From: an uncultured Burkholderiaceae bacterium
GTDB taxonomy: Bacteria > Pseudomonadota > Gammaproteobacteria > Burkholderiales > Burkholderiaceae
Direction of reading: 5' to 3'
NCBI GenBank assembly: GCA_937862905.1
Contig: CALMCL010000114.1
Location: 5,821-69,820 of the forward strand
DNA length: 64,000 nucleotides
Below are positions 2-9,066 of the stretch, in pieces. The notes below the pieces were generated by a model. That model had not been told where the DNA came from. It saw only the letters and a program-made list of their open reading frames with translations, and did not search any database. The translations under genes and the position numbers were made by a program. The number at the start of each line of letters is the position of its first letter. The stretch's first letter is position 1.

Positions 2-1186
2 AGTCGTACCGCAGCAGAGATTGAACGATATAGAAAGACCTGTGGTGAGATCGGAGGGGTTGCCATCTCGCACCCCATCGAGGTCATTGTTAAAACACAT
101 GGTGTTGAGAAAGACAGTAATTTCTTTTTACCCGTTTTGAAAAATGAAGATGTAAGCGTATTTGAGCTTATTAAAATGGAGATTACACCAGTCAGTAAAT
201 TAGGTATAGACAGCCCAGAGTTGATTAATTTATTGAATGCTTTACCCAGTTCGGCATTGTACGGTGTACAGCGGCTGGTTTCCCATTTCAGAAAATCATC
301 CACCGATGTGGCTTTTATATGGCAAGATGGTGCCGTTATTTTTGCTGCTTTAGCCGCCTTGATTGCAGGCGTTCCTAAAATTGTTCTTAATATTCGCGGT
401 TTGCCGCCAAGCTTAAGGACTCATTTGCTGAGACCTGAGTATGAGCCTATGTACCGTGCTTTATCTAAAGTGCCAGGTGTTTCGTTTGTGAGTAATAGCA
501 AAGCAGCGGCAGTTGCTTATGCGGATTGGCTCGATATTCCAGTTGAGCGGTTTGAGGTTGTTTATAATGGTGTGCCCAAAATGCCGACAATCGATTCGGT
601 TGATGAAGGTAAAATTTGGGATGATTTTGCTGAAAGAACCAAAAACGCTACATCAACTGTCGGGGGGGTGTTTCGTTTTGATACGGATAAACGCCCTATT
701 TTGGTGATTCAATACGTGAGAGAGTACTTAAATATTAACCCAGATGCACGGTTTGTTTTTGTTGGTTATGGGCGTCTTTTTGATAAGTGTGTTGATATTG
801 CTAAAAAACTCAAAGTTAGTGATCGAATTTTATTTGTAGGTAAGAGTTCAAATGTCGGTTATTGGATATCAAAGATGGAGGCCTTAATTTTGATGTCGAG
901 GTTTGAAGGTTTACCAAATGTGCTGATAGAAGCTCAGCACTTAGGTGTTCCTGTCGTATCAACCCCTGCGGGCGGGGCGATTGAGTGTTTTCAAAATGGG
1001 AAAACAGGTTTTATTTTGTCCTCTGTGGAGGAGCCTGATTTGGTTGAGGCCGCGCATAAAACTGAAGAGTTTATTCAACGCTTCAGAGAAAATAAAGAAT
1101 TATCTTTGGAGAGTATGTCATATGCCGAAAATAATTTTTCAATTCCAAAGATGATTGAAAAAACTGTTCGTACACTTTCAAGTTGA
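2..1186 (+). CDS. tviE: Vi polysaccharide biosynthesis glycosyltransferase TviE (GT4/GT-B), 5'-truncated by the window edge
   Basis: The frame is open from base 2, upstream of the 137 start in the track. Motifs WQDGA..AALAALIAGVP, RGLPP..R..L.RPEYEP.Y.AL, GGVFRF and SRFEGLPNVLIEAQ..GVPVVSTPAGG match Salmonella TviE as I recall it. It lies directly upstream of a vexA-E-like export operon. Confidence 0.88.
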   Translation, partial: SRTAAEIERYRKTCGEIGGVAISHPIEVIVKTHGVEKDSNFFLPVLKNEDVSVFELIKMEITPVSKLGIDSPELINLLNALPSSALYGVQRLVSHFRKSSTDVAFIWQDGAVIFAALAALIAGVPKIVLNIRGLPPSLRTHLLRPEYEPMYRALSKVPGVSFVSNSKAAAVAYADWLDIPVERFEVVYNGVPKMPTIDSVDEGKIWDDFAERTKNATSTVGGVFRFDTDKRPILVIQYVREYLNINPDARFVFVGYGRLFDKCVDIAKKLKVSDRILFVGKSSNVGYWISKMEALILMSRFEGLPNVLIEAQHLGVPVVSTPAGGAIECFQNGKTGFILSSVEEPDLVEAAHKTEEFIQRFRENKELSLESMSYAENNFSIPKMIEKTVRTLSS

Positions 1187-1383
1187 AGAGCGCTCATAAT
1201 TGTGAGTAATGATGTTTTTTATTGCTAGAATGCTTTTAAACCATCACAAGAATGTTCACTTTGAGCTTATTGCTTTTAAGGTTTTTTAGTGGAAAGTTCA
1301 CGCAAAGCCTAAAATAGCTCAAAAATACCAATTAAAACATTGAATTGCTGATGAGTTTCAGTATTGAAAATAAGGGAGGCACG

Positions 1384-2493
1384 GTGCTTAATAAAAAAAA
1401 ATATTTATTGTTATTTCTTGTGGTTGGCATGTTGATGGGGTGTGTTTCAAGAAATGGGCCTTCTTTTAGTGACTTGCATGACGCTCAGCAATCGAATCCT
1501 GGGCTGATTGTACTTCCAATTAACTCAAATGTTGTTGGTTCTAGGCTCGTTGAGTCGCCATTCAATAATGTGTCTGACTTCCTGACTCGCTCATTCCCTG
1601 GTTCAGTTAAGCTGGGGGTCGGTGACAAGATAAATATTTATGTTTGGGAAAGTGCTTCGCTTGGATTGTTTACGAATGCTCAAAAAGGCGTGGCTGATCT
1701 TGGCGTTTTTCAAATTGCGGATAATGGTTATATTACCGTCCCATACGTTGGCTCTGTTTTGGCCAAAGGGAATACCATTGAAGGTGTGCGTGCAATAATT
1801 GTTAGTCGTTTGAGTCGCAAAACAATTGACCCTCAAGTAGAGGTCAAGTTGACTCAGGGCATGGAGTCTAAAGTTAATATTTTAGGGGTGGTTAATAAAC
1901 CTGGTGTTTATACCCTTAATTCTGGTTTAACAACGTTGCGTGCCTTGATTGCGGCTGCTGGGGGGGTATCAACGGGCTTAACTGACTTTACGGGCATTAC
2001 CTTTAGCCGTGACTCGCGTACCGTTGATTTTACGCTTCAAGATTTATTGGCAGGTGTTGTTCCTGATATTCCGTTGGTGGGAGGCGATCAGATTCAGCTC
2101 GTCGAAAATAGTAAGTCGTTTACAGTTTTGGGGTCAGCTGGCGCTCAAGGTTTGGTTAAGTTTCCTAAAAACAGGGTGTCTTTACTTGAAGCGATTGCCT
2201 TATCTAAAGGCTTGGTTGATGATGTTGCAAACCCTCAAGGGGTTTTCTTGTTACGCAGAGAACGTGCTGATTTTATACGTTCATTGGATAGTTCTTATGC
2301 TTATGCAACACACGATGGAATGGTCGATGTTGTTTATGAGCTGAATATGCGCAGCTCGGAGGCGTTGTTTGCTTCGAAGAAGTTTGAAGTTAAGGATGGG
2401 GACTCCATTTTTATGACAAATTCATATGATGCTGGCATAAAGAAAGCGTTGAGTGTGTTGCTTCCATTTGCGACTGCCGTGTCTCGGTTTTAA
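1384..2493 (+). CDS. vexA: Capsule export outer-membrane lipoprotein (Wza/KpsD-like), VexA
   Basis: Likely GTG start at 1384 after RBS AAGGGAGG. Lipobox LMGC, poly_export motif (LGVGDKINIYVWE, G.ITVPYVG.V.AKG.T) and SLBB repeats. Confidence 0.85.
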   Translation: MLNKKKYLLLFLVVGMLMGCVSRNGPSFSDLHDAQQSNPGLIVLPINSNVVGSRLVESPFNNVSDFLTRSFPGSVKLGVGDKINIYVWESASLGLFTNAQKGVADLGVFQIADNGYITVPYVGSVLAKGNTIEGVRAIIVSRLSRKTIDPQVEVKLTQGMESKVNILGVVNKPGVYTLNSGLTTLRALIAAAGGVSTGLTDFTGITFSRDSRTVDFTLQDLLAGVVPDIPLVGGDQIQLVENSKSFTVLGSAGAQGLVKFPKNRVSLLEAIALSKGLVDDVANPQGVFLLRRERADFIRSLDSSYAYATHDGMVDVVYELNMRSSEALFASKKFEVKDGDSIFMTNSYDAGIKKALSVLLPFATAVSRF

Positions 2494-7390: not shown

Positions 7391-7998
7391 GTGTTGTGTA
7401 GTGACATTAATGTTTAGGCTGTGCAAATAAGGGACATGTGCGTTTATTTATAGTTAGCCATGTGGTATTTCTAGGCTTATCTTGCGGCTGATTCTCGCGC
7501 GCAATGCAACATTAATGTAGCTCATCTTAAACTTTAACCACAAAGTCATATGACACAGCAATAAATAGCATTGGTCAACTCTTCAATTCGTTCTTTCGAG
7601 GCTGGCAACCTAATCAATAGCAAGCCGGAAAGCGTCTAAAACGGCAAAGCGTTTAAGCAACGGCAGACGACTAAAAGTAAAAAGTGGAGGTTATTGCATA
7701 TGCGCCACCGCTGTAGCACCATCGGCTTTAGCCCTTTGATGTTGGAGCAAAAGCATGAGGGAGCTCTAAAGAGATGGCTTTTTGCATTAATTTCATTATA
7801 TTTTGGCAAATATCGTGCAAGTGGCTTCGAGAGGGTGGCTTGCATGTTTCTGGCTGATACCAGTTCGTAATGTGCTGTGTTTTACTTTCAATCGCGAGTT
7901 GGCATACAAAGTGAAACACTTTAACTCACATTTGTCTAATTCTTAGTTTGTTCGTATTTCACTTCTCGGTTGAATCTGTTTTTTTAAAAAGACATGCA

Positions 7999-9066
7999 AT
8001 GAAAAAAATATGTATTTTTTTTGTGTTGTTGCTCAATACTTCATTATTGATGGCAGCTTCTTTTGTTGTCACAAATGTCGCTGATTATGGACGAAATGAA
8101 ATCCCCATTCAGGGCTCTTTGCGTTATTTTATTGAAAATGCAAAAAATGGTGCTTACATTACTTTCAATCCATCTGTTTTTACGAGCTCGGGGGGCGTGA
8201 TTTTTTTAAAAAGACCTTTAGTGGTTGGGTCTGATGTTCATATTGATGGCATAGGAGCTAATGTTGTTATCAGTAGTCAAGTGAGTTGGCAGGATTTTGA
8301 ACTTTCATCTTCTGGAGCGGAGTGTCTAAGGAAAGCTGGTGTTTTGTCACAAGATAAGAATGATTTCTCAAAAATCTATATTAGAGGGAAAGCAAATAAT
8401 GTCTCTGTTGTTAATTTAACGTTTTCGAATGATTTTGGCCATCCACCTGCTTGGTGGACTGAGAGAGTGCAAGATGATTGTTTAAAGGATAGTATTACCG
8501 TAATAGAGTACGCTGATAATGTTTTAATTGGTCATAACCGATTTTTGAATTGTGGGGATGAGTGTGTTTCAGTCATACAAACAGATTTAGATGCGCCAAA
8601 AAATGTGGTTATTGAAAATAATATATTTAGTAAGGTTAATAAATCGATTCTGATTAAAGGAAGCTTTAATGGGCTTGAGTCAAGCTTGGAGCCAACTATA
8701 AAAGTTAAAGTATTGAATAATTTTTTTGATGAAACTCAGCAACGAAACCCTAGGGTGCAAGATGCGTTTGTTGAAATATTAGGAAATGTTGTTTATAAAT
8801 GGAAAACCTCAGGTATGGCATTTTCAGGTCGTAATAAATTGATAATAAATAACAACCACTTTATTAAAGGAAGTGATTCTGATGCCCTGTTGTTTCTTAA
8901 TAATACAAAAGAAGAGCTGCAATCTTATCGCGGTAATGTGTTTGTTGGAGACGGCGTGAAAAGGCCCGCCGCTGAGTCTGACTATTCAAATAGAGTAGAA
9001 AAAAGACTTTTACCTGAGGATGTTTTGGATATTGAGGCTGTAAGAAAAATGGCGGGACCACGTTGA
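7999..9066 (+). CDS. vexL: Secreted PL1 (pectate-lyase-fold) polysaccharide lyase, probable Vi-antigen lyase VexL
   Basis: ATG at 7999 gives a signal peptide (MKKICIFFVLLLNTSLLMA/ASF). PL1 beta-helix hallmarks: VVTN.AD.G..GSLRY, PL.VGS...IDG.G, DSITV, GDE.VSV, QRNPRV. Downstream of vexE. Confidence 0.75.
   Translation: MKKICIFFVLLLNTSLLMAASFVVTNVADYGRNEIPIQGSLRYFIENAKNGAYITFNPSVFTSSGGVIFLKRPLVVGSDVHIDGIGANVVISSQVSWQDFELSSSGAECLRKAGVLSQDKNDFSKIYIRGKANNVSVVNLTFSNDFGHPPAWWTERVQDDCLKDSITVIEYADNVLIGHNRFLNCGDECVSVIQTDLDAPKNVVIENNIFSKVNKSILIKGSFNGLESSLEPTIKVKVLNNFFDETQQRNPRVQDAFVEILGNVVYKWKTSGMAFSGRNKLIINNNHFIKGSDSDALLFLNNTKEELQSYRGNVFVGDGVKRPAAESDYSNRVEKRLLPEDVLDIEAVRKMAGPR

What the first reader, a model, noticed from the sequence alone, without database searches (positions are those of the whole stretch)
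2..9066. Vi-antigen-type capsule locus (tviE-vexABCDE-vexL) on an AT-rich block in a Burkholderiales-like genome
Seen: the order is GT4 glycosyltransferase, Wza-like lipoprotein, KpsM, KpsT, KpsE-like protein, TPR-acyltransferase, PL1 lyase, in sequence that is visibly more AT-rich than the core genes to the right. Known: tviBCDE-vexABCDE makes and exports the Vi capsule of Salmonella Typhi and Citrobacter freundii; related loci with vexL are described in Achromobacter/Bordetella; VexE, which acylates the reducing-terminal sugar, is the distinctive Vi anchor enzyme. Inference: this lineage makes a Vi-like poly-GalNAcA capsule acquired horizontally. If the host is an environmental or insect-associated Burkholderiaceae, this extends the known range of a typhoid virulence antigen.
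Basis: partly seen in the sequence, partly recalled or inferred. Interest (0 to 1): 0.75.

Follow-up and report, generated by a model that had tools for sequence, protein, structure and literature searches.

The report
Vi-type capsule island in wastewater Hydromonas
The left 9 kb of the window is the export half of a complete, horizontally acquired Vi-antigen-type capsule gene cluster in a wastewater and river Hydromonas-like bacterium; it is a divergent new lineage of a known system, and its attached sugar-cutting enzyme is not the known VexL.

Summary
Window 2-9066 encodes, on the + strand, tviE (3' part), vexA, vexB, vexC, vexD, vexE and a signal-peptide PL1 lyase. This block is 40.7% GC against 49.3% for the rest of the window.

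A metagenome contig 99.5% identical to the window supplies the missing left part: cysM, an IS5 remnant, then tviB, tviC, tviD and full-length tviE. This makes the S. Typhi viaB gene order, without tviA.

The published catalytic residues of TviD, TviE and VexE are conserved. Natural variants show purifying selection (pN/pS about 0.13).

The host is a Hydromonas-like Burkholderiales from wastewater and rivers (DnaE 85% to H. duriensis).

The locus is not the Achromobacter/Bordetella type described in the literature. It forms a clade with a Hydromonas MAG and with Legionella loci, one of them plasmid-borne (bootstrap 200/200).

The lyase is only 22-26% identical to VexL. It keeps the catalytic Lys/Arg/Arg but lacks VexL's acetyl-recognition loop, and has no relative above about 30% identity among 1.84 billion representative proteins.

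Some strains carry a clean 14.6-kb deletion of the cluster, and only a minority of the local population carries the island.

Verdict: a divergent new member of a known system, with a non-orthologous lyase. Polymer chemistry is untested.

The parts
2..1186 (+). tviE, 3' two-thirds (GT4 polymerase). The gene runs off the left end of the window. The full 654-aa gene is seen on contig L009 at 7152-9116.
   Evidence: NCBIfam best hit is TviE: E 2e-124 for the window fragment and 2e-164 for the full length. Pfam finds Glycos_transf_1. The Arg406/Lys411 equivalents (FRFDTDKR) and the EX7E motif (EGLPNVLIE) are conserved.
1384..2493 (+). vexA, outer-membrane polysaccharide export (OPX) lipoprotein, 369 aa. 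GTG start; lipobox-like LMGC.
   Evidence: Pfam finds Poly_export plus two SLBB domains. NCBIfam gives the generic OPX subfamily at 6e-30 and VexA at 1e-27. Gene callers on metagenome contigs use the same start.
2525..3277 (+). vexB, ABC-2 transmembrane subunit, 250 aa.
   Evidence: NCBIfam gives VexB at 7e-60 against KpsM at 2e-24. It is 41% identical to Citrobacter VexB but only 20% identical to the Achromobacter/Bordetella counterpart.
3279..3929 (+). vexC, ABC ATPase, 216 aa.
   Evidence: NCBIfam best hit is VexC at 4e-39. Pfam finds ABC_tran.
3944..5440 (+). vexD, polysaccharide co-polymerase (KpsE family), 498 aa. It has a charged N-terminal extension of about 130 aa.
   Evidence: NCBIfam gives BexC/CtrB/KpsE at 5e-73 (matching residues 141-493) and VexD at 7e-61.
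5456..7390 (+). vexE, TPR plus LPLAT-type beta-hydroxyacyltransferase, which makes the glycolipid anchor. 644 aa.
   Evidence: NCBIfam gives VexE at 7e-125 over residues 76-648. The catalytic His in the HX4Y motif (AHVGCLY) and the Asp (AVDGA) are conserved (these residues are defined in PMC9597891). The AlphaFold2 model has pLDDT 88.8 and shows a TPR superhelix plus a C-terminal alpha/beta domain.
7391..7998 (+). Non-coding spacer of 609 bp between vexE and the lyase gene. It holds an orphan 56-aa ORF (7701-7871) called by gene finders.
   Evidence: Sequence read. The ORF has no Pfam or NCBIfam hit. In the Achromobacter-type loci examined (e.g. L028), vexL starts within about 10-20 bp of the vexE stop.
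7999..9066 (+). PL1-family polysaccharide lyase, 355 aa, with an N-terminal signal peptide (MKKICIFFVLLLNTSLLMAAS). It sits at the vexL position but belongs to a different PL1 subfamily.
   Evidence: Pfam finds Pectate_lyase_4 and Beta_helix. The best PDB hit by sequence is VexL 6FI2, but at only E 6e-5. hhalign against a VexL alignment gives probability 100%, E 1e-41, 22% identity. The K195/Q231/R232/R235/Q237 equivalents are kept; Y254, Y295, Y298, R305 and R172 are not. GC is 35.8% and GC3 is 27.5%.
8021..8021 (.). Right-hand breakpoint of a natural 14,570-bp deletion. It removes everything from the IS5 remnant through vexE plus the first 22 nt of the lyase gene.
   Evidence: Contigs L095 and L098, from two different samples, join L009 position 1380 to position 15951 (window 8021) with TTGTG microhomology.
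9067..9191 (.). Right boundary of the AT-rich accessory island, just before the plsX stop (plsX 9161-10213, minus strand).
   Evidence: GC jumps from about 36% to 51% here. Metagenome contig depth jumps several-fold, up to more than ten-fold in places, at about 9200. Contigs of the abundant strains diverge from the window to the left of 9191.

Best explanation
Window 1-9191 is the right-hand two-thirds of an accessory genomic island of about 16.5 kb. The island lies between cysM and plsX in a Hydromonas-like freshwater and wastewater Burkholderiales. It carries a complete viaB-type capsule system: tviB, tviC, tviD, tviE, vexA, vexB, vexC, vexD, vexE, plus a PL1 lyase.

Inferred mechanism, by homology to the S. 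Typhi and Achromobacter systems:
1. TviB oxidises UDP-GlcNAc and TviC epimerises the product to UDP-GalNAcA.
2. VexE transfers a beta-hydroxyacyl chain from ACP to UDP-GlcNAc, making the lipid primer and anchor.
3. TviE polymerises GalNAcA on that primer, and TviD O-acetylates the polymer.
4. The VexBC ABC transporter, with the PCP VexD and the OPX lipoprotein VexA, exports the lipid-anchored acidic polymer to the cell surface.
5. The signal-peptide PL1 lyase most likely cleaves this same polyuronide outside the cytoplasm. Like VexL it may trim or clear periplasmic polymer. It was recruited independently from another PL1 subfamily.

Shown here: gene content and order, conserved catalytic residues, purifying selection, foreign composition, and strain-variable presence.

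Inferred only: the chemistry of the polymer, the substrate and location of the lyase, and expression of the locus.
For: All nine Vi genes are present in S. Typhi order. tviE through vexE lie in the window. tviB (5e-143), tviC (3e-143), tviD (2e-61) and full-length tviE (2e-164) lie on L009, which is 99.5% identical to the window over 11 kb.

For TviB, TviC, TviD, TviE, VexB, VexC and VexE the best NCBIfam model is the Vi-specific one.

Experimentally defined catalytic residues are conserved:
- TviD: the GSC nucleophile motif and the DLTH block (defined in PMC8760489).
- TviE: the Arg/Lys pair and the EX7E motif.
- VexE: the HX4Y motif and the Asp (defined in PMC9597891).

The VexE AlphaFold2 model shows a TPR domain plus an alpha/beta domain at pLDDT 88.8. 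No kpsS or kpsC lies in the locus. B. bronchiseptica TviD and TviE, at only 23% and 32% identity to the S. Typhi proteins, are still active in a reconstituted S. Typhi system (PMC8760489). The 24-38% identities seen here are therefore within the functional range.

All ORFs are intact on more than ten independent metagenome contigs, and pN/pS is about 0.13.

The lyase is homologous to VexL (hhalign probability 100%). It keeps the Lys/Arg/Arg catalytic set, has a signal peptide, is co-directional with and downstream of vexE, and has the same metagenome depth as the capsule genes.

Evidence that this is an island:
- GC 41% against 52%, and GC3 37% against 57%.
- A frameshifted IS5 transposase remnant upstream of tviB.
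- A clade with Legionella loci, one plasmid-borne and one next to an integrase gene, with 200/200 bootstrap support.
- Carried by a minority of the local population.
Against: - Every Vi-specific NCBIfam score is below its curated equivalog cut-off, for example VexE 418 against 1200 and TviD 208 against 1808.
- Identities to the enterobacterial proteins are only 24-58%.
- For VexA and VexD the generic OPX and KpsE models score slightly better than the Vi-specific ones.
- tviB, tviC and tviD are not in the window itself. They are taken from a near-identical contig.
- There is no tviA-like regulator.
- The lyase lacks the VexL residues that read the O- and N-acetyl groups. It has a distinct GC, is separated from vexE by 609 bp, and survives (5'-truncated) in the deletion variants. 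Its functional link to the capsule is therefore circumstantial.
- Evidence for transcription is only patchy low coverage in wastewater runs labelled 'RNA?', which may contain DNA.
Confidence: 0.75

Rival explanations
1. The machinery is viaB-like, but the product is a chemically different acidic polymer. It could differ in linkage, uronic acid or acylation pattern. In that case it is not Vi antigen and would not cross-react with anti-Vi antibody or Vi phage.
For: The proteins are only 24-58% identical to the enterobacterial ones, and all score below the NCBIfam equivalog cut-offs. The locus forms its own deep clade. The associated lyase lacks the VexL residues that recognise the acetyl groups of Vi. 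According to PMC8760489, mammal-adapted Bordetella carry TviD/TviE homologues yet make a capsule of undetermined structure.
Against: The precursor enzymes TviB and TviC score 477 bits each against the Vi-specific models. The TviD acetyltransferase catalytic motifs are intact. Still more distant TviD/TviE homologues are active in a reconstituted S. Typhi system (PMC8760489).
Confidence: 0.2
2. The PL1 gene is not part of the capsule system. It is an independently acquired secreted pectate-type lyase for plant or algal polyuronide catabolism that happens to lie next to vexE.
For: Its GC (35.8%; GC3 27.5%) differs from that of the capsule genes (about 42%; GC3 about 38%). A 609-bp spacer separates it from vexE. 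By score, its nearest relatives are generic environmental 'pectate lyase family' proteins, such as one from Parachitinimonas caeni, and not VexL. The closest Vi loci (Hydromonas MAG, Legionella) have no lyase. It retains two of the three canonical PL1 Ca-ligand positions that VexL has lost.
Against: A PL1 lyase co-directional with vexE and a short distance downstream of it (directly after it, or after tviC) recurs in about 60 of 80 GTDB Vi-type loci, and a PL1 gene also lies within two sphingomonad loci. Chance adjacency is therefore unlikely. The gene has the same depth as the capsule genes, not the core genes, in four metagenomes. No other pectin-utilisation genes are nearby.
Confidence: 0.25
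3. The cluster is a decaying, non-expressed relic of an old transfer.
For: Deletion variants exist. Only a minority of the population carries the island. No regulator gene is present. The RNA evidence is weak.
Against: All ten ORFs are intact on many independent contigs. pN/pS is about 0.13, with up to 17% synonymous divergence in vexA. All catalytic motifs are intact.
Confidence: 0.05

Closest known systems
S. Typhi / Citrobacter viaB locus (tviABCDE-vexABCDE)
   Same: It has the same nine structural genes in the same order. The ABC transporter is of the same type: VexB is 41%, VexC 34% and VexD 30% identical to Citrobacter. VexE-type lipid anchoring is used instead of KpsSC. The locus is AT-rich, foreign-looking and prone to deletion.
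   Different: There is no tviA regulator. Protein identities are only 24-58%. The locus forms a separate deep clade. It carries an extra PL1 lyase gene, which S. Typhi lacks. The host is an environmental betaproteobacterium, and the island is not in an SPI-7-like element.
Achromobacter / Bordetella petrii Vi loci with VexL (PMC6003464; PDB 6FI2)
   Same: The host order is the same (Burkholderiales). TviB, TviD, TviE, VexA and VexE are homologous. A signal-peptide PL1 lyase of the plant/Amb-allergen-like branch lies downstream of vexE, with conserved equivalents of catalytic Arg232, Lys195 and Arg235.
   Different: The clade is different (bootstrap 200/200). VexB, VexC and VexD are only 15-24% identical. 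In the Paraburkholderia and Caballeronia loci tviC lies after vexE; for the Achromobacter loci tviC was simply not found within the stretch fetched. The lyase is 22-26% identical, against 65-89% among known VexLs. It lacks the rung-9 loop (Tyr295, Tyr298, Arg305), Tyr254, Arg172 and the three disulfides. It has its own insertions and a CGDxC motif. It is separated from vexE by 609 bp.
Vi-type loci of a Hydromonas MAG and of Legionella (L. gresilensis, Legionella sp. D16C41 plasmid, L. beliardensis); not described in the literature that could be searched
   Same: These are the nearest relatives of every protein compared (36-53% identity, TviC 68%). They form a robust clade with the window locus for VexE, TviE, TviD and VexD.
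   Different: They have no lyase gene. In Legionella tviD lies after vexE, and the precursor genes are a different epimerase/dehydrogenase pair (28-35% identity). The Hydromonas MAG locus sits at another chromosomal site.
E. coli group 2 (KpsMTED/KpsSC) capsules
   Same: Export is ABC-transporter dependent, using KpsM-, KpsT-, KpsE- and KpsD-like components.
   Different: The locus has no kpsS or kpsC. It has VexE instead, which implies a diacyl-HexNAc anchor rather than lyso-PG-oligo-Kdo.

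Membership tests
viaB-type (Vi antigen) capsule locus | UDP-GalNAcA precursor enzymes TviB (UDP-GlcNAc 6-dehydrogenase) and TviC (4-epimerase) are present in the locus | tested here: met
   They lie on L009 (99.5% identical to the window), immediately left of the window. 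TviB scores E 5e-143 and TviC 3e-143 as best NCBIfam hits. They are not inside the window itself.
viaB-type (Vi antigen) capsule locus | TviE GT4 polymerase with the Arg406/Lys411 pair and the EX7E motif | tested here: met
   Best model is TviE (2e-124 for the window fragment, 2e-164 for full length). The motifs FRFDTDKR and EGLPNVLIE align with Citrobacter TviE.
viaB-type (Vi antigen) capsule locus | TviD O-acetyltransferase: atypical SGNH domain with a Gly-Ser-Cys nucleophile block and a DXXH block, followed by TPR repeats | tested here: met
   The L009 TviD is 821 aa. Pfam finds TviD_N. IGSCR and DLTH are conserved in the alignment. The residues are defined in PMC8760489.
viaB-type (Vi antigen) capsule locus | VexE: N-terminal TPR plus C-terminal LPLAT acyltransferase with HX4Y and a catalytic Asp | tested here: met
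   NCBIfam gives VexE at 7e-125. AHVGCLY and AVDGA are conserved. The AlphaFold2 model has a TPR superhelix plus an alpha/beta domain at pLDDT 88.8. Foldseek returned only TPR matches, so the LPLAT fold itself was not confirmed structurally. The Pfam Lip_A_acyltrans hit is weak (E 0.004).
viaB-type (Vi antigen) capsule locus | ABC-transporter export set VexA/B/C/D, and no kpsS or kpsC in the locus | tested here: met
   The four export genes are shown. The island is bounded by cysM and plsX and holds no further ORF with a family hit. Absence of kpsSC elsewhere in the genome could not be tested.
viaB-type (Vi antigen) capsule locus | Proteins reach the curated NCBIfam equivalog cut-offs for the Vi proteins | tested here: not met
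   All are below cut-off: TviE 548/733, TviB 477/592, TviC 477/760, TviD 208/1808, VexA 97/456, VexB 203/297, VexC 134/313, VexD 207/905, VexE 418/1200. These models are built on the enterobacterial sequences, so this excludes close orthology, not homology.
viaB-type (Vi antigen) capsule locus | The product is an alpha-1,4-linked poly-GalNAcA, O-acetylated at C-3, with a diacyl-HexNAc terminus | not testable with these tools
   This needs expression, immunochemistry and NMR/MS.
VexL (Vi-specific periplasmic PL1 endolyase) | PL1 right-handed beta-helix homologous to VexL, with the catalytic Arg232, Lys195 and Arg235 | tested here: met
   hhalign gives probability 100%, E 1e-41. VexL and Jun a 1 are the top PDB profile hits. 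K, Q-R-N-P-R-x-Q are conserved. The single-sequence AlphaFold2 model failed (pLDDT 35), so there is no structural confirmation.
VexL (Vi-specific periplasmic PL1 endolyase) | Close sequence family: known members are 65-89% identical to A. denitrificans VexL (PMC6003464) | tested here: not met
   Identity is 22-26%. phmmer gives only about 19-31 bits against the VexL-type sequences from the GTDB loci (45 and 33 bits to two sphingomonad PL1s). It gives 80-101 bits to other uncharacterised PL1 proteins.
VexL (Vi-specific periplasmic PL1 endolyase) | Residues that read the O- and N-acetyl groups of Vi (Tyr254, Tyr295, Tyr298, Arg305, Leu308) and the supporting Arg172 | tested here: not met
   The rung-9 loop carrying Tyr295, Tyr298 and Arg305 is absent. 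Tyr254 is Ser and Arg172 is Glu. Only Leu308 is kept.
VexL (Vi-specific periplasmic PL1 endolyase) | Metal independence (loss of the PL1 Ca2+ ligands) | tested here: inconclusive
   The window protein keeps Asp at two of the three canonical ligand positions (the D of DSITV and the D of GDEC), and the third is Ser. VexL keeps one. Biochemistry is needed.
VexL (Vi-specific periplasmic PL1 endolyase) | N-terminal signal peptide, and a gene immediately downstream of and co-directional with vexE | tested here: inconclusive
   A signal-peptide-like N-terminus (MKK, a hydrophobic core, then AAS) is seen by inspection only; no predictor was run. The gene is co-directional with and next to vexE, but after a 609-bp spacer rather than about 10-20 bp as in the Achromobacter-type loci examined.
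E. coli group 2 (KpsSC-dependent) capsule | kpsS and kpsC Kdo-transferases that build the lyso-PG-oligo-Kdo acceptor | tested here: not met
   No such genes lie in the island. VexE is present instead.

The most novel reading that the evidence does not exclude
Vi-type capsule loci may not be an enterobacterial and Alcaligenaceae curiosity. They may be a mobile module circulating among waterborne bacteria: Hydromonas-like Burkholderiales, Legionella plasmids and Sphingomonadales. Different lineages of the module would then have independently recruited different PL1-family lyases next to vexE. That would imply that a dedicated lyase is a functionally required partner of Vi-type export in environmental hosts. 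The window's lyase, which lacks the acetyl-reading loop, would define a new Vi-lyase subfamily with different specificity, for example tolerance of de-O-acetylated polymer or dependence on metal.
Probability: 0.35. Interest if true: 0.55.

Novelty: new member of a known kind. Interest (0 to 1): 0.4.

Why it matters
Vi antigen is the typhoid capsule and the basis of current typhoid vaccines. Its evolutionary source is unknown, and so is the reason why environmental producers pair it with a lyase.

- **A further deep lineage.** This locus adds another deep lineage of the system, in a new genus and in wastewater and river habitat. It has Salmonella-type gene order and transporter.
- **A natural comparison for the lyase.** The lyase keeps VexL's catalytic core but not its specificity loop. 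That offers a natural comparison for testing what VexL-type lyases do in ABC-transporter-dependent export.
- **Mobility and instability.** The clean 14.6-kb deletion variants and the minority carriage show the capsule is a strain-variable trait under selection in situ. This parallels Vi loss in S. Typhi.
- **Practical note.** At 24-58% protein identity these genes are unlikely to cross-react with the S. Typhi nucleic-acid assays used in wastewater surveillance. This was not tested.

Tried and rejected
- **AlphaFold2 of the lyase without an alignment.** It gave pLDDT 35 and was unusable. No alignment could be supplied, because the word-indexed search found only the protein's own 95% cluster.
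- **Foldseek of the VexE model.** It returned only TPR proteins, so it did not test the LPLAT domain.
- **NJ tree of PL1 proteins.** It placed the window lyase near the sphingomonad and VexL branches. All branches are very long, and bit scores point instead to other uncharacterised PL1s. I treat the topology as unresolved.
- **Search for island-bounding features.** I looked for direct repeats, tRNA genes and integrases at the island ends. There are none; only an IS5 remnant was found.
- **Promoter and terminator scans.** They gave no more sites than shuffled sequence.
- **Small ORFs.** Those upstream of tviB and the 56-aa ORF in the spacer have no family hits.
- **Laying reads on L009.** The window was used instead.
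- **Host genome in the GTDB representatives.** It was not found; the best VexE match is 41% identical.
- **A special relationship to the enterobacterial viaB.** This was rejected. Citrobacter branches with or near the sphingomonad loci, not with this clade.

Full report
**Observation.** All genes lie on the + strand.
- 2-1186: an open frame running in from the left edge.
- 1384-2493: a lipoprotein.
- 2525-3277: a permease.
- 3279-3929: an ATPase.
- 3944-5440: a 498-aa protein.
- 5456-7390: a 644-aa TPR protein.
- 7999-9066: after a 609-bp gap, a 355-aa protein with a signal-peptide-like N-terminus (ATG confirmed).

Pfam assigns GT4, Poly_export/SLBB, ABC2_membrane, ABC_tran, nothing, TPR (plus a weak Lip_A_acyltrans hit), and Pectate_lyase_4/Beta_helix, in that order.

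The block is 40.7% GC. All other 9-kb windows of the same sequence average 49.3% (SD 1.1, minimum 46.7). GC3 is 37% in the capsule genes and 57% in ten core genes.

**Is it Vi-type?** Against NCBIfam, the best model is the Vi-specific equivalog for the GT4 fragment (TviE, 2e-124), the permease (VexB, 7e-60, against KpsM at 2e-24), the ATPase (VexC, 4e-39) and the TPR protein (VexE, 7e-125, nearly full length). For the OPX and PCP proteins the generic family models are marginally better than VexA and VexD.

Exact-protein look-ups of VexC and VexA recovered metagenome contigs of the same organism. The longest, L009 (18,930 bp), is 99.5% identical to window 1-11000 and extends 7,930 bp further left. 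It encodes cysM (partial), then 1.5 kb without real ORFs, then TviB (5e-143), TviC (3e-143), TviD (2e-61, Pfam TviD_N) and full-length TviE (2e-164).

The full order is therefore tviB-C-D-E-vexA-B-C-D-E, as in S. Typhi, without tviA and with a PL1 gene added. All scores are below the curated equivalog cut-offs. These are distant homologues, not close orthologues.

**Functional integrity.** I took the experimentally defined catalytic residues from the literature and checked them in alignments with Citrobacter, Achromobacter, Bordetella, Legionella and sphingomonad homologues.
- TviD's Gly-Ser-Cys block and DXXH block (PMC8760489) are present as IGSCR and DLTH.
- TviE's Arg406/Lys411 pair and EX7E motif are present.
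- VexE's HX4Y histidine and catalytic Asp (PMC9597891) are present as AHVGCLY and AVDGA.

An AlphaFold2 model of VexE built from nine homologues is confident (pLDDT 88.8). It shows a long TPR superhelix followed by an alpha/beta domain. Foldseek returned only TPR matches, so the LPLAT fold was not independently confirmed.

Comparison of the window with natural variants (L007, L004, L009) shows every ORF intact and pN/pS of about 0.13. Divergence is mosaic, for example pS 0.17 in vexA against 0.007 in vexC, which suggests recombination.

B. bronchiseptica TviD and TviE, at 23% and 32% identity to S. Typhi, are still active in a reconstituted S. Typhi system (PMC8760489). The 24-38% identities here therefore do not argue against the same chemistry, but they do not prove it.

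**Host and habitat.** The rest of the window is ordinary core genome. It holds plsX, metE and a LysR regulator; rsmB and a porin; dnaE, msbA and a WaaL-like ligase; ftsH and a two-component system; gdhA, mutL, proS and dsbC; tRNA-Arg, rplM/rpsI and argC.

DnaE is 85% identical to Hydromonas duriensis and 78% to Formosimonas limnophila. Other Burkholderiales are at or below 61%. The 3.6-kb vexE-lyase stretch occurs in 18 public runs, all wastewater or riverine metagenomes. 'Burkholderiales-like' is right. 'Insect-associated' is not supported.

**Place among Vi loci.** A degenerate-pattern scan of one genome per GTDB species with a VexE alignment found 102 relatives.
- Many are in Achromobacter, Bordetella, Castellaniella, Paraburkholderia and Caballeronia (the group known from the literature) and in Citrobacter.
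- Others are in Sphingomonas, Novosphingobium and Sphingobium, in Legionella gresilensis, on a Legionella sp. D16C41 plasmid, and in a Hydromonas MAG.
- The host genome itself was not among them; the best match is 41% identical.

Neighbour-joining trees with 200 bootstraps put the window locus with the Hydromonas MAG and Legionella in 200/200 replicates for VexE, TviE, TviD and VexD. This clade is separate from the Alcaligenaceae/Burkholderiaceae clade, which has 188-200/200 support.

Inside the clade the Hydromonas MAG groups with Legionella, not with the window organism (177-200/200 for VexE, TviE, TviD and VexD). This is incongruent with the species tree.

The window's VexB, VexC and VexD are of the Citrobacter/Salmonella type (30-41% identity). 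The Achromobacter/Bordetella counterparts are only 15-24% identical.

In the Hydromonas MAG the locus ends at vexE and abuts a pseudouridine synthase gene, so it sits at a different chromosomal site. In Legionella it is followed by an OMP gene; an integrase gene follows in L. gresilensis, and the Legionella sp. D16C41 copy is on a plasmid. I found no paper in the searchable library that links Vi or VexE to Legionella or sphingomonads.

**Horizontal origin and population behaviour.** Besides composition, a frameshifted IS5-family transposase remnant lies about 500 bp upstream of tviB (L009 about 1540-1700). A read-through peptide hits annotated IS5 transposases at 2e-10. No flanking repeats, tRNA gene or integrase were found.

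A look-up of the exact PlsX protein returned two contigs from different samples (L095, L098). They are 99-100% identical to L009 on both sides but join L009 position 1380 directly to position 15951 (window 8021). The missing 14,570 bp runs from the IS5 remnant through vexE and includes the first 22 nt of the lyase gene. TTGTG microhomology occurs at both ends. Because the junction removes the lyase's start codon, this is a deletion derivative, not an empty ancestral site.

In four wastewater DNA runs, contig depth over window 1-9200 is about 7, 10, 25 and 7. Over 9200-12000 it is mostly about 45-115, 14-145, 110-235 and up to 50, and it is uneven in the last run. Abundant-strain contigs diverge from the window to the left of position 9191. 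Only a minority of the related population therefore carries this island, lyase included. Contig depth is a crude measure, and core genes of related species collapse together, so this is semi-quantitative.

'RNA?' wastewater runs give patchy low coverage across the locus. This is at best weak evidence of transcription.

**The lyase.**
- *Homology to VexL.* The best PDB match by sequence is VexL (6FI2), but only at E 6e-5 over 84 residues. A profile of the protein and its nearest relatives matches Jun a 1 (1e-44) and VexL (8e-44) far better than classical bacterial pectate lyases (3e-25 or weaker). hhalign against a VexL alignment gives probability 100%, E 1e-41, 22% identity over 281 columns. 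It therefore belongs to the same plant/Amb-allergen-like branch of PL1 as VexL.
- *Residues kept.* The residues shown by mutagenesis to be essential in VexL (Lys195, Arg232, Arg235) and their neighbours Gln231, Gln237 and Asp171 are conserved (residues from PMC6003464).
- *Residues lost.* The rung-9 loop with Tyr295, Tyr298 and Arg305, which contacts the acetyl groups of Vi, is absent. Tyr254 is Ser and Arg172 is Glu. The three VexL disulfides are missing. There are two private insertions and a subfamily-specific CGDxC motif. Two of the three canonical PL1 calcium-ligand positions are still Asp, against one in VexL. Metal dependence is open.
- *Rarity.* The word-indexed search of 5.8 billion proteins found only the protein's own 95% cluster. 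An exhaustive HMMER search of 1.84 billion representatives found nothing closer than about 30% identity (best E 6e-24), and only 34 hits at or below 1e-10. The few named relatives are 'pectate lyase family protein', for example from Parachitinimonas caeni.
- *Distribution in Vi loci.* A PL1/VexL gene follows vexE (or tviC) in about 60 of the 80 GTDB Vi-type loci. A PL1 gene also lies within two sphingomonad loci: directly after vexE in a Sphingobium MAG, and about 8 kb upstream of vexE in Novosphingobium cyanobacteriorum. No PL1 gene is present in the window's own clade.
- *Composition.* The gene's GC (35.8%; GC3 27.5%) is lower than that of the capsule genes.

My reading is that a lyase was added to this locus independently of vexL. 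It most likely acts on the locus's own polyuronide outside the cytoplasm. The rival reading, an unrelated catabolic pectate lyase that merely sits next door, keeps about 25% probability.

**Mechanism (inferred).**
1. TviB and TviC make UDP-GalNAcA.
2. VexE makes the acylated UDP-GlcNAc primer.
3. TviE polymerises and TviD O-acetylates.
4. VexBC, VexD and VexA export the lipid-anchored polymer.
5. The PL1 enzyme trims or clears polymer in the periplasm or outside the cell.

Gene content, catalytic motifs, selection and mobility are shown here. Chemistry, location and regulation are not.

**Comparison and novelty.** This is a member of the known viaB kind of system by gene content and motifs. 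It is not a close orthologue of either described group.

Four things are new:
- a distinct lineage shared with Legionella, including a plasmid copy;
- a new genus and habitat;
- a non-orthologous lyase at the vexL position;
- a natural deletion polymorphism.

I file it as a new member of a known kind, with interest 0.4. The more novel reading is that separate Vi lineages independently recruited lyases on a mobile waterborne module. I give that a probability of about 0.35.

Noticed in passing
window 8021 (= L009 15951) joined to L009 1380; loci L095 and L098: Two contigs from different samples carry a clean 14,570-bp deletion. It removes the IS5 remnant, tviBCDE, vexABCDE, the spacer and the first 22 nt of the lyase gene. 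TTGTG microhomology occurs at both ends. This is a natural capsule-minus variant of the same organism.
   Followed up: yes
L009 about 1540-1700 (about 500 bp upstream of tviB, left of the window): This is a frameshifted remnant of an IS5-family transposase. A read-through peptide matches annotated IS5 transposases on plasmids at 2e-10 (up to 68% identity).
   Followed up: yes
L009 2007-2042 (about 170 bp upstream of tviB): An 18+18-nt near-perfect palindrome, AATCAACATTGTGGCAAT/ATTGACACAATGTTGATT, lies in the 1.5-kb ORF-free leader. It is a candidate regulator-binding site. There is no tviA homologue.
   Followed up: no
loci L012, L015 (Legionella), L013 (Hydromonas MAG), L014-L023, L032, L039, L078 (Sphingomonadales): Complete or near-complete Vi-type loci (tviD/tviE/vexA-E) occur in Legionella, once on a 225-kb plasmid, and in many sphingomonads. 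I found no paper in the searchable library describing them. At least L. beliardensis VexE is annotated only as 'tetratricopeptide repeat protein'.
   Followed up: partly
loci L028, L081, L044 etc. against window 2525-5440: The ABC transporter and PCP of the Achromobacter/Bordetella/Caballeronia Vi loci are only 15-24% identical both to the Citrobacter type and to the window's VexB/C/D. The window, Legionella, sphingomonad and Citrobacter versions are mutually 30-53% identical. This points to two different export modules behind 'Vi' loci.
   Followed up: partly
window 1384-2493 and 5456-7390 against L007, L004 and L009: Divergence between natural variants is mosaic. Synonymous divergence is 17% in vexA and 5.5% in vexE, but below 1% in vexC and the lyase. 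This suggests recombination within the island.
   Followed up: partly
window 3944-4360: VexD has an N-terminal extension of about 130 aa rich in Glu, Arg, Lys and Ala that looks like a coiled coil. It lies before the KpsE-family domain and is not covered by the family models.
   Followed up: no
window 58229-58292 (+): Rfam match to the Betaproteobacteria toxic small RNA family (RF02278): 54 bits against a gathering score of 50. It lies just upstream of rplM.
   Followed up: no
window 56229-56972 (+): A 247-aa Ala/Lys/Pro-rich repetitive protein of the histone-H1-like / AlgP-like type lies downstream of tRNA-Arg(CCG) at 55331-55406. The region has a strong AT-skew anomaly.
   Followed up: no
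window 27345-30530 (+): msbA (lipid A flippase) is directly followed by a Wzy_C / O-antigen-ligase-family gene (29199-30530) and then a patatin-like phospholipase. This is a core-genome LPS assembly neighbourhood unrelated to the capsule island.
   Followed up: no
window 10674-13136 (-): The longest metE ORF (820 aa) is probably over-extended by 54 codons. Gene callers on some related contigs give 766 aa, and the conserved MetE sequence starts at MTISSHILGFPRIG. RNA-run contig depth peaks over the 5' end of the gene (12610-13076).
   Followed up: no
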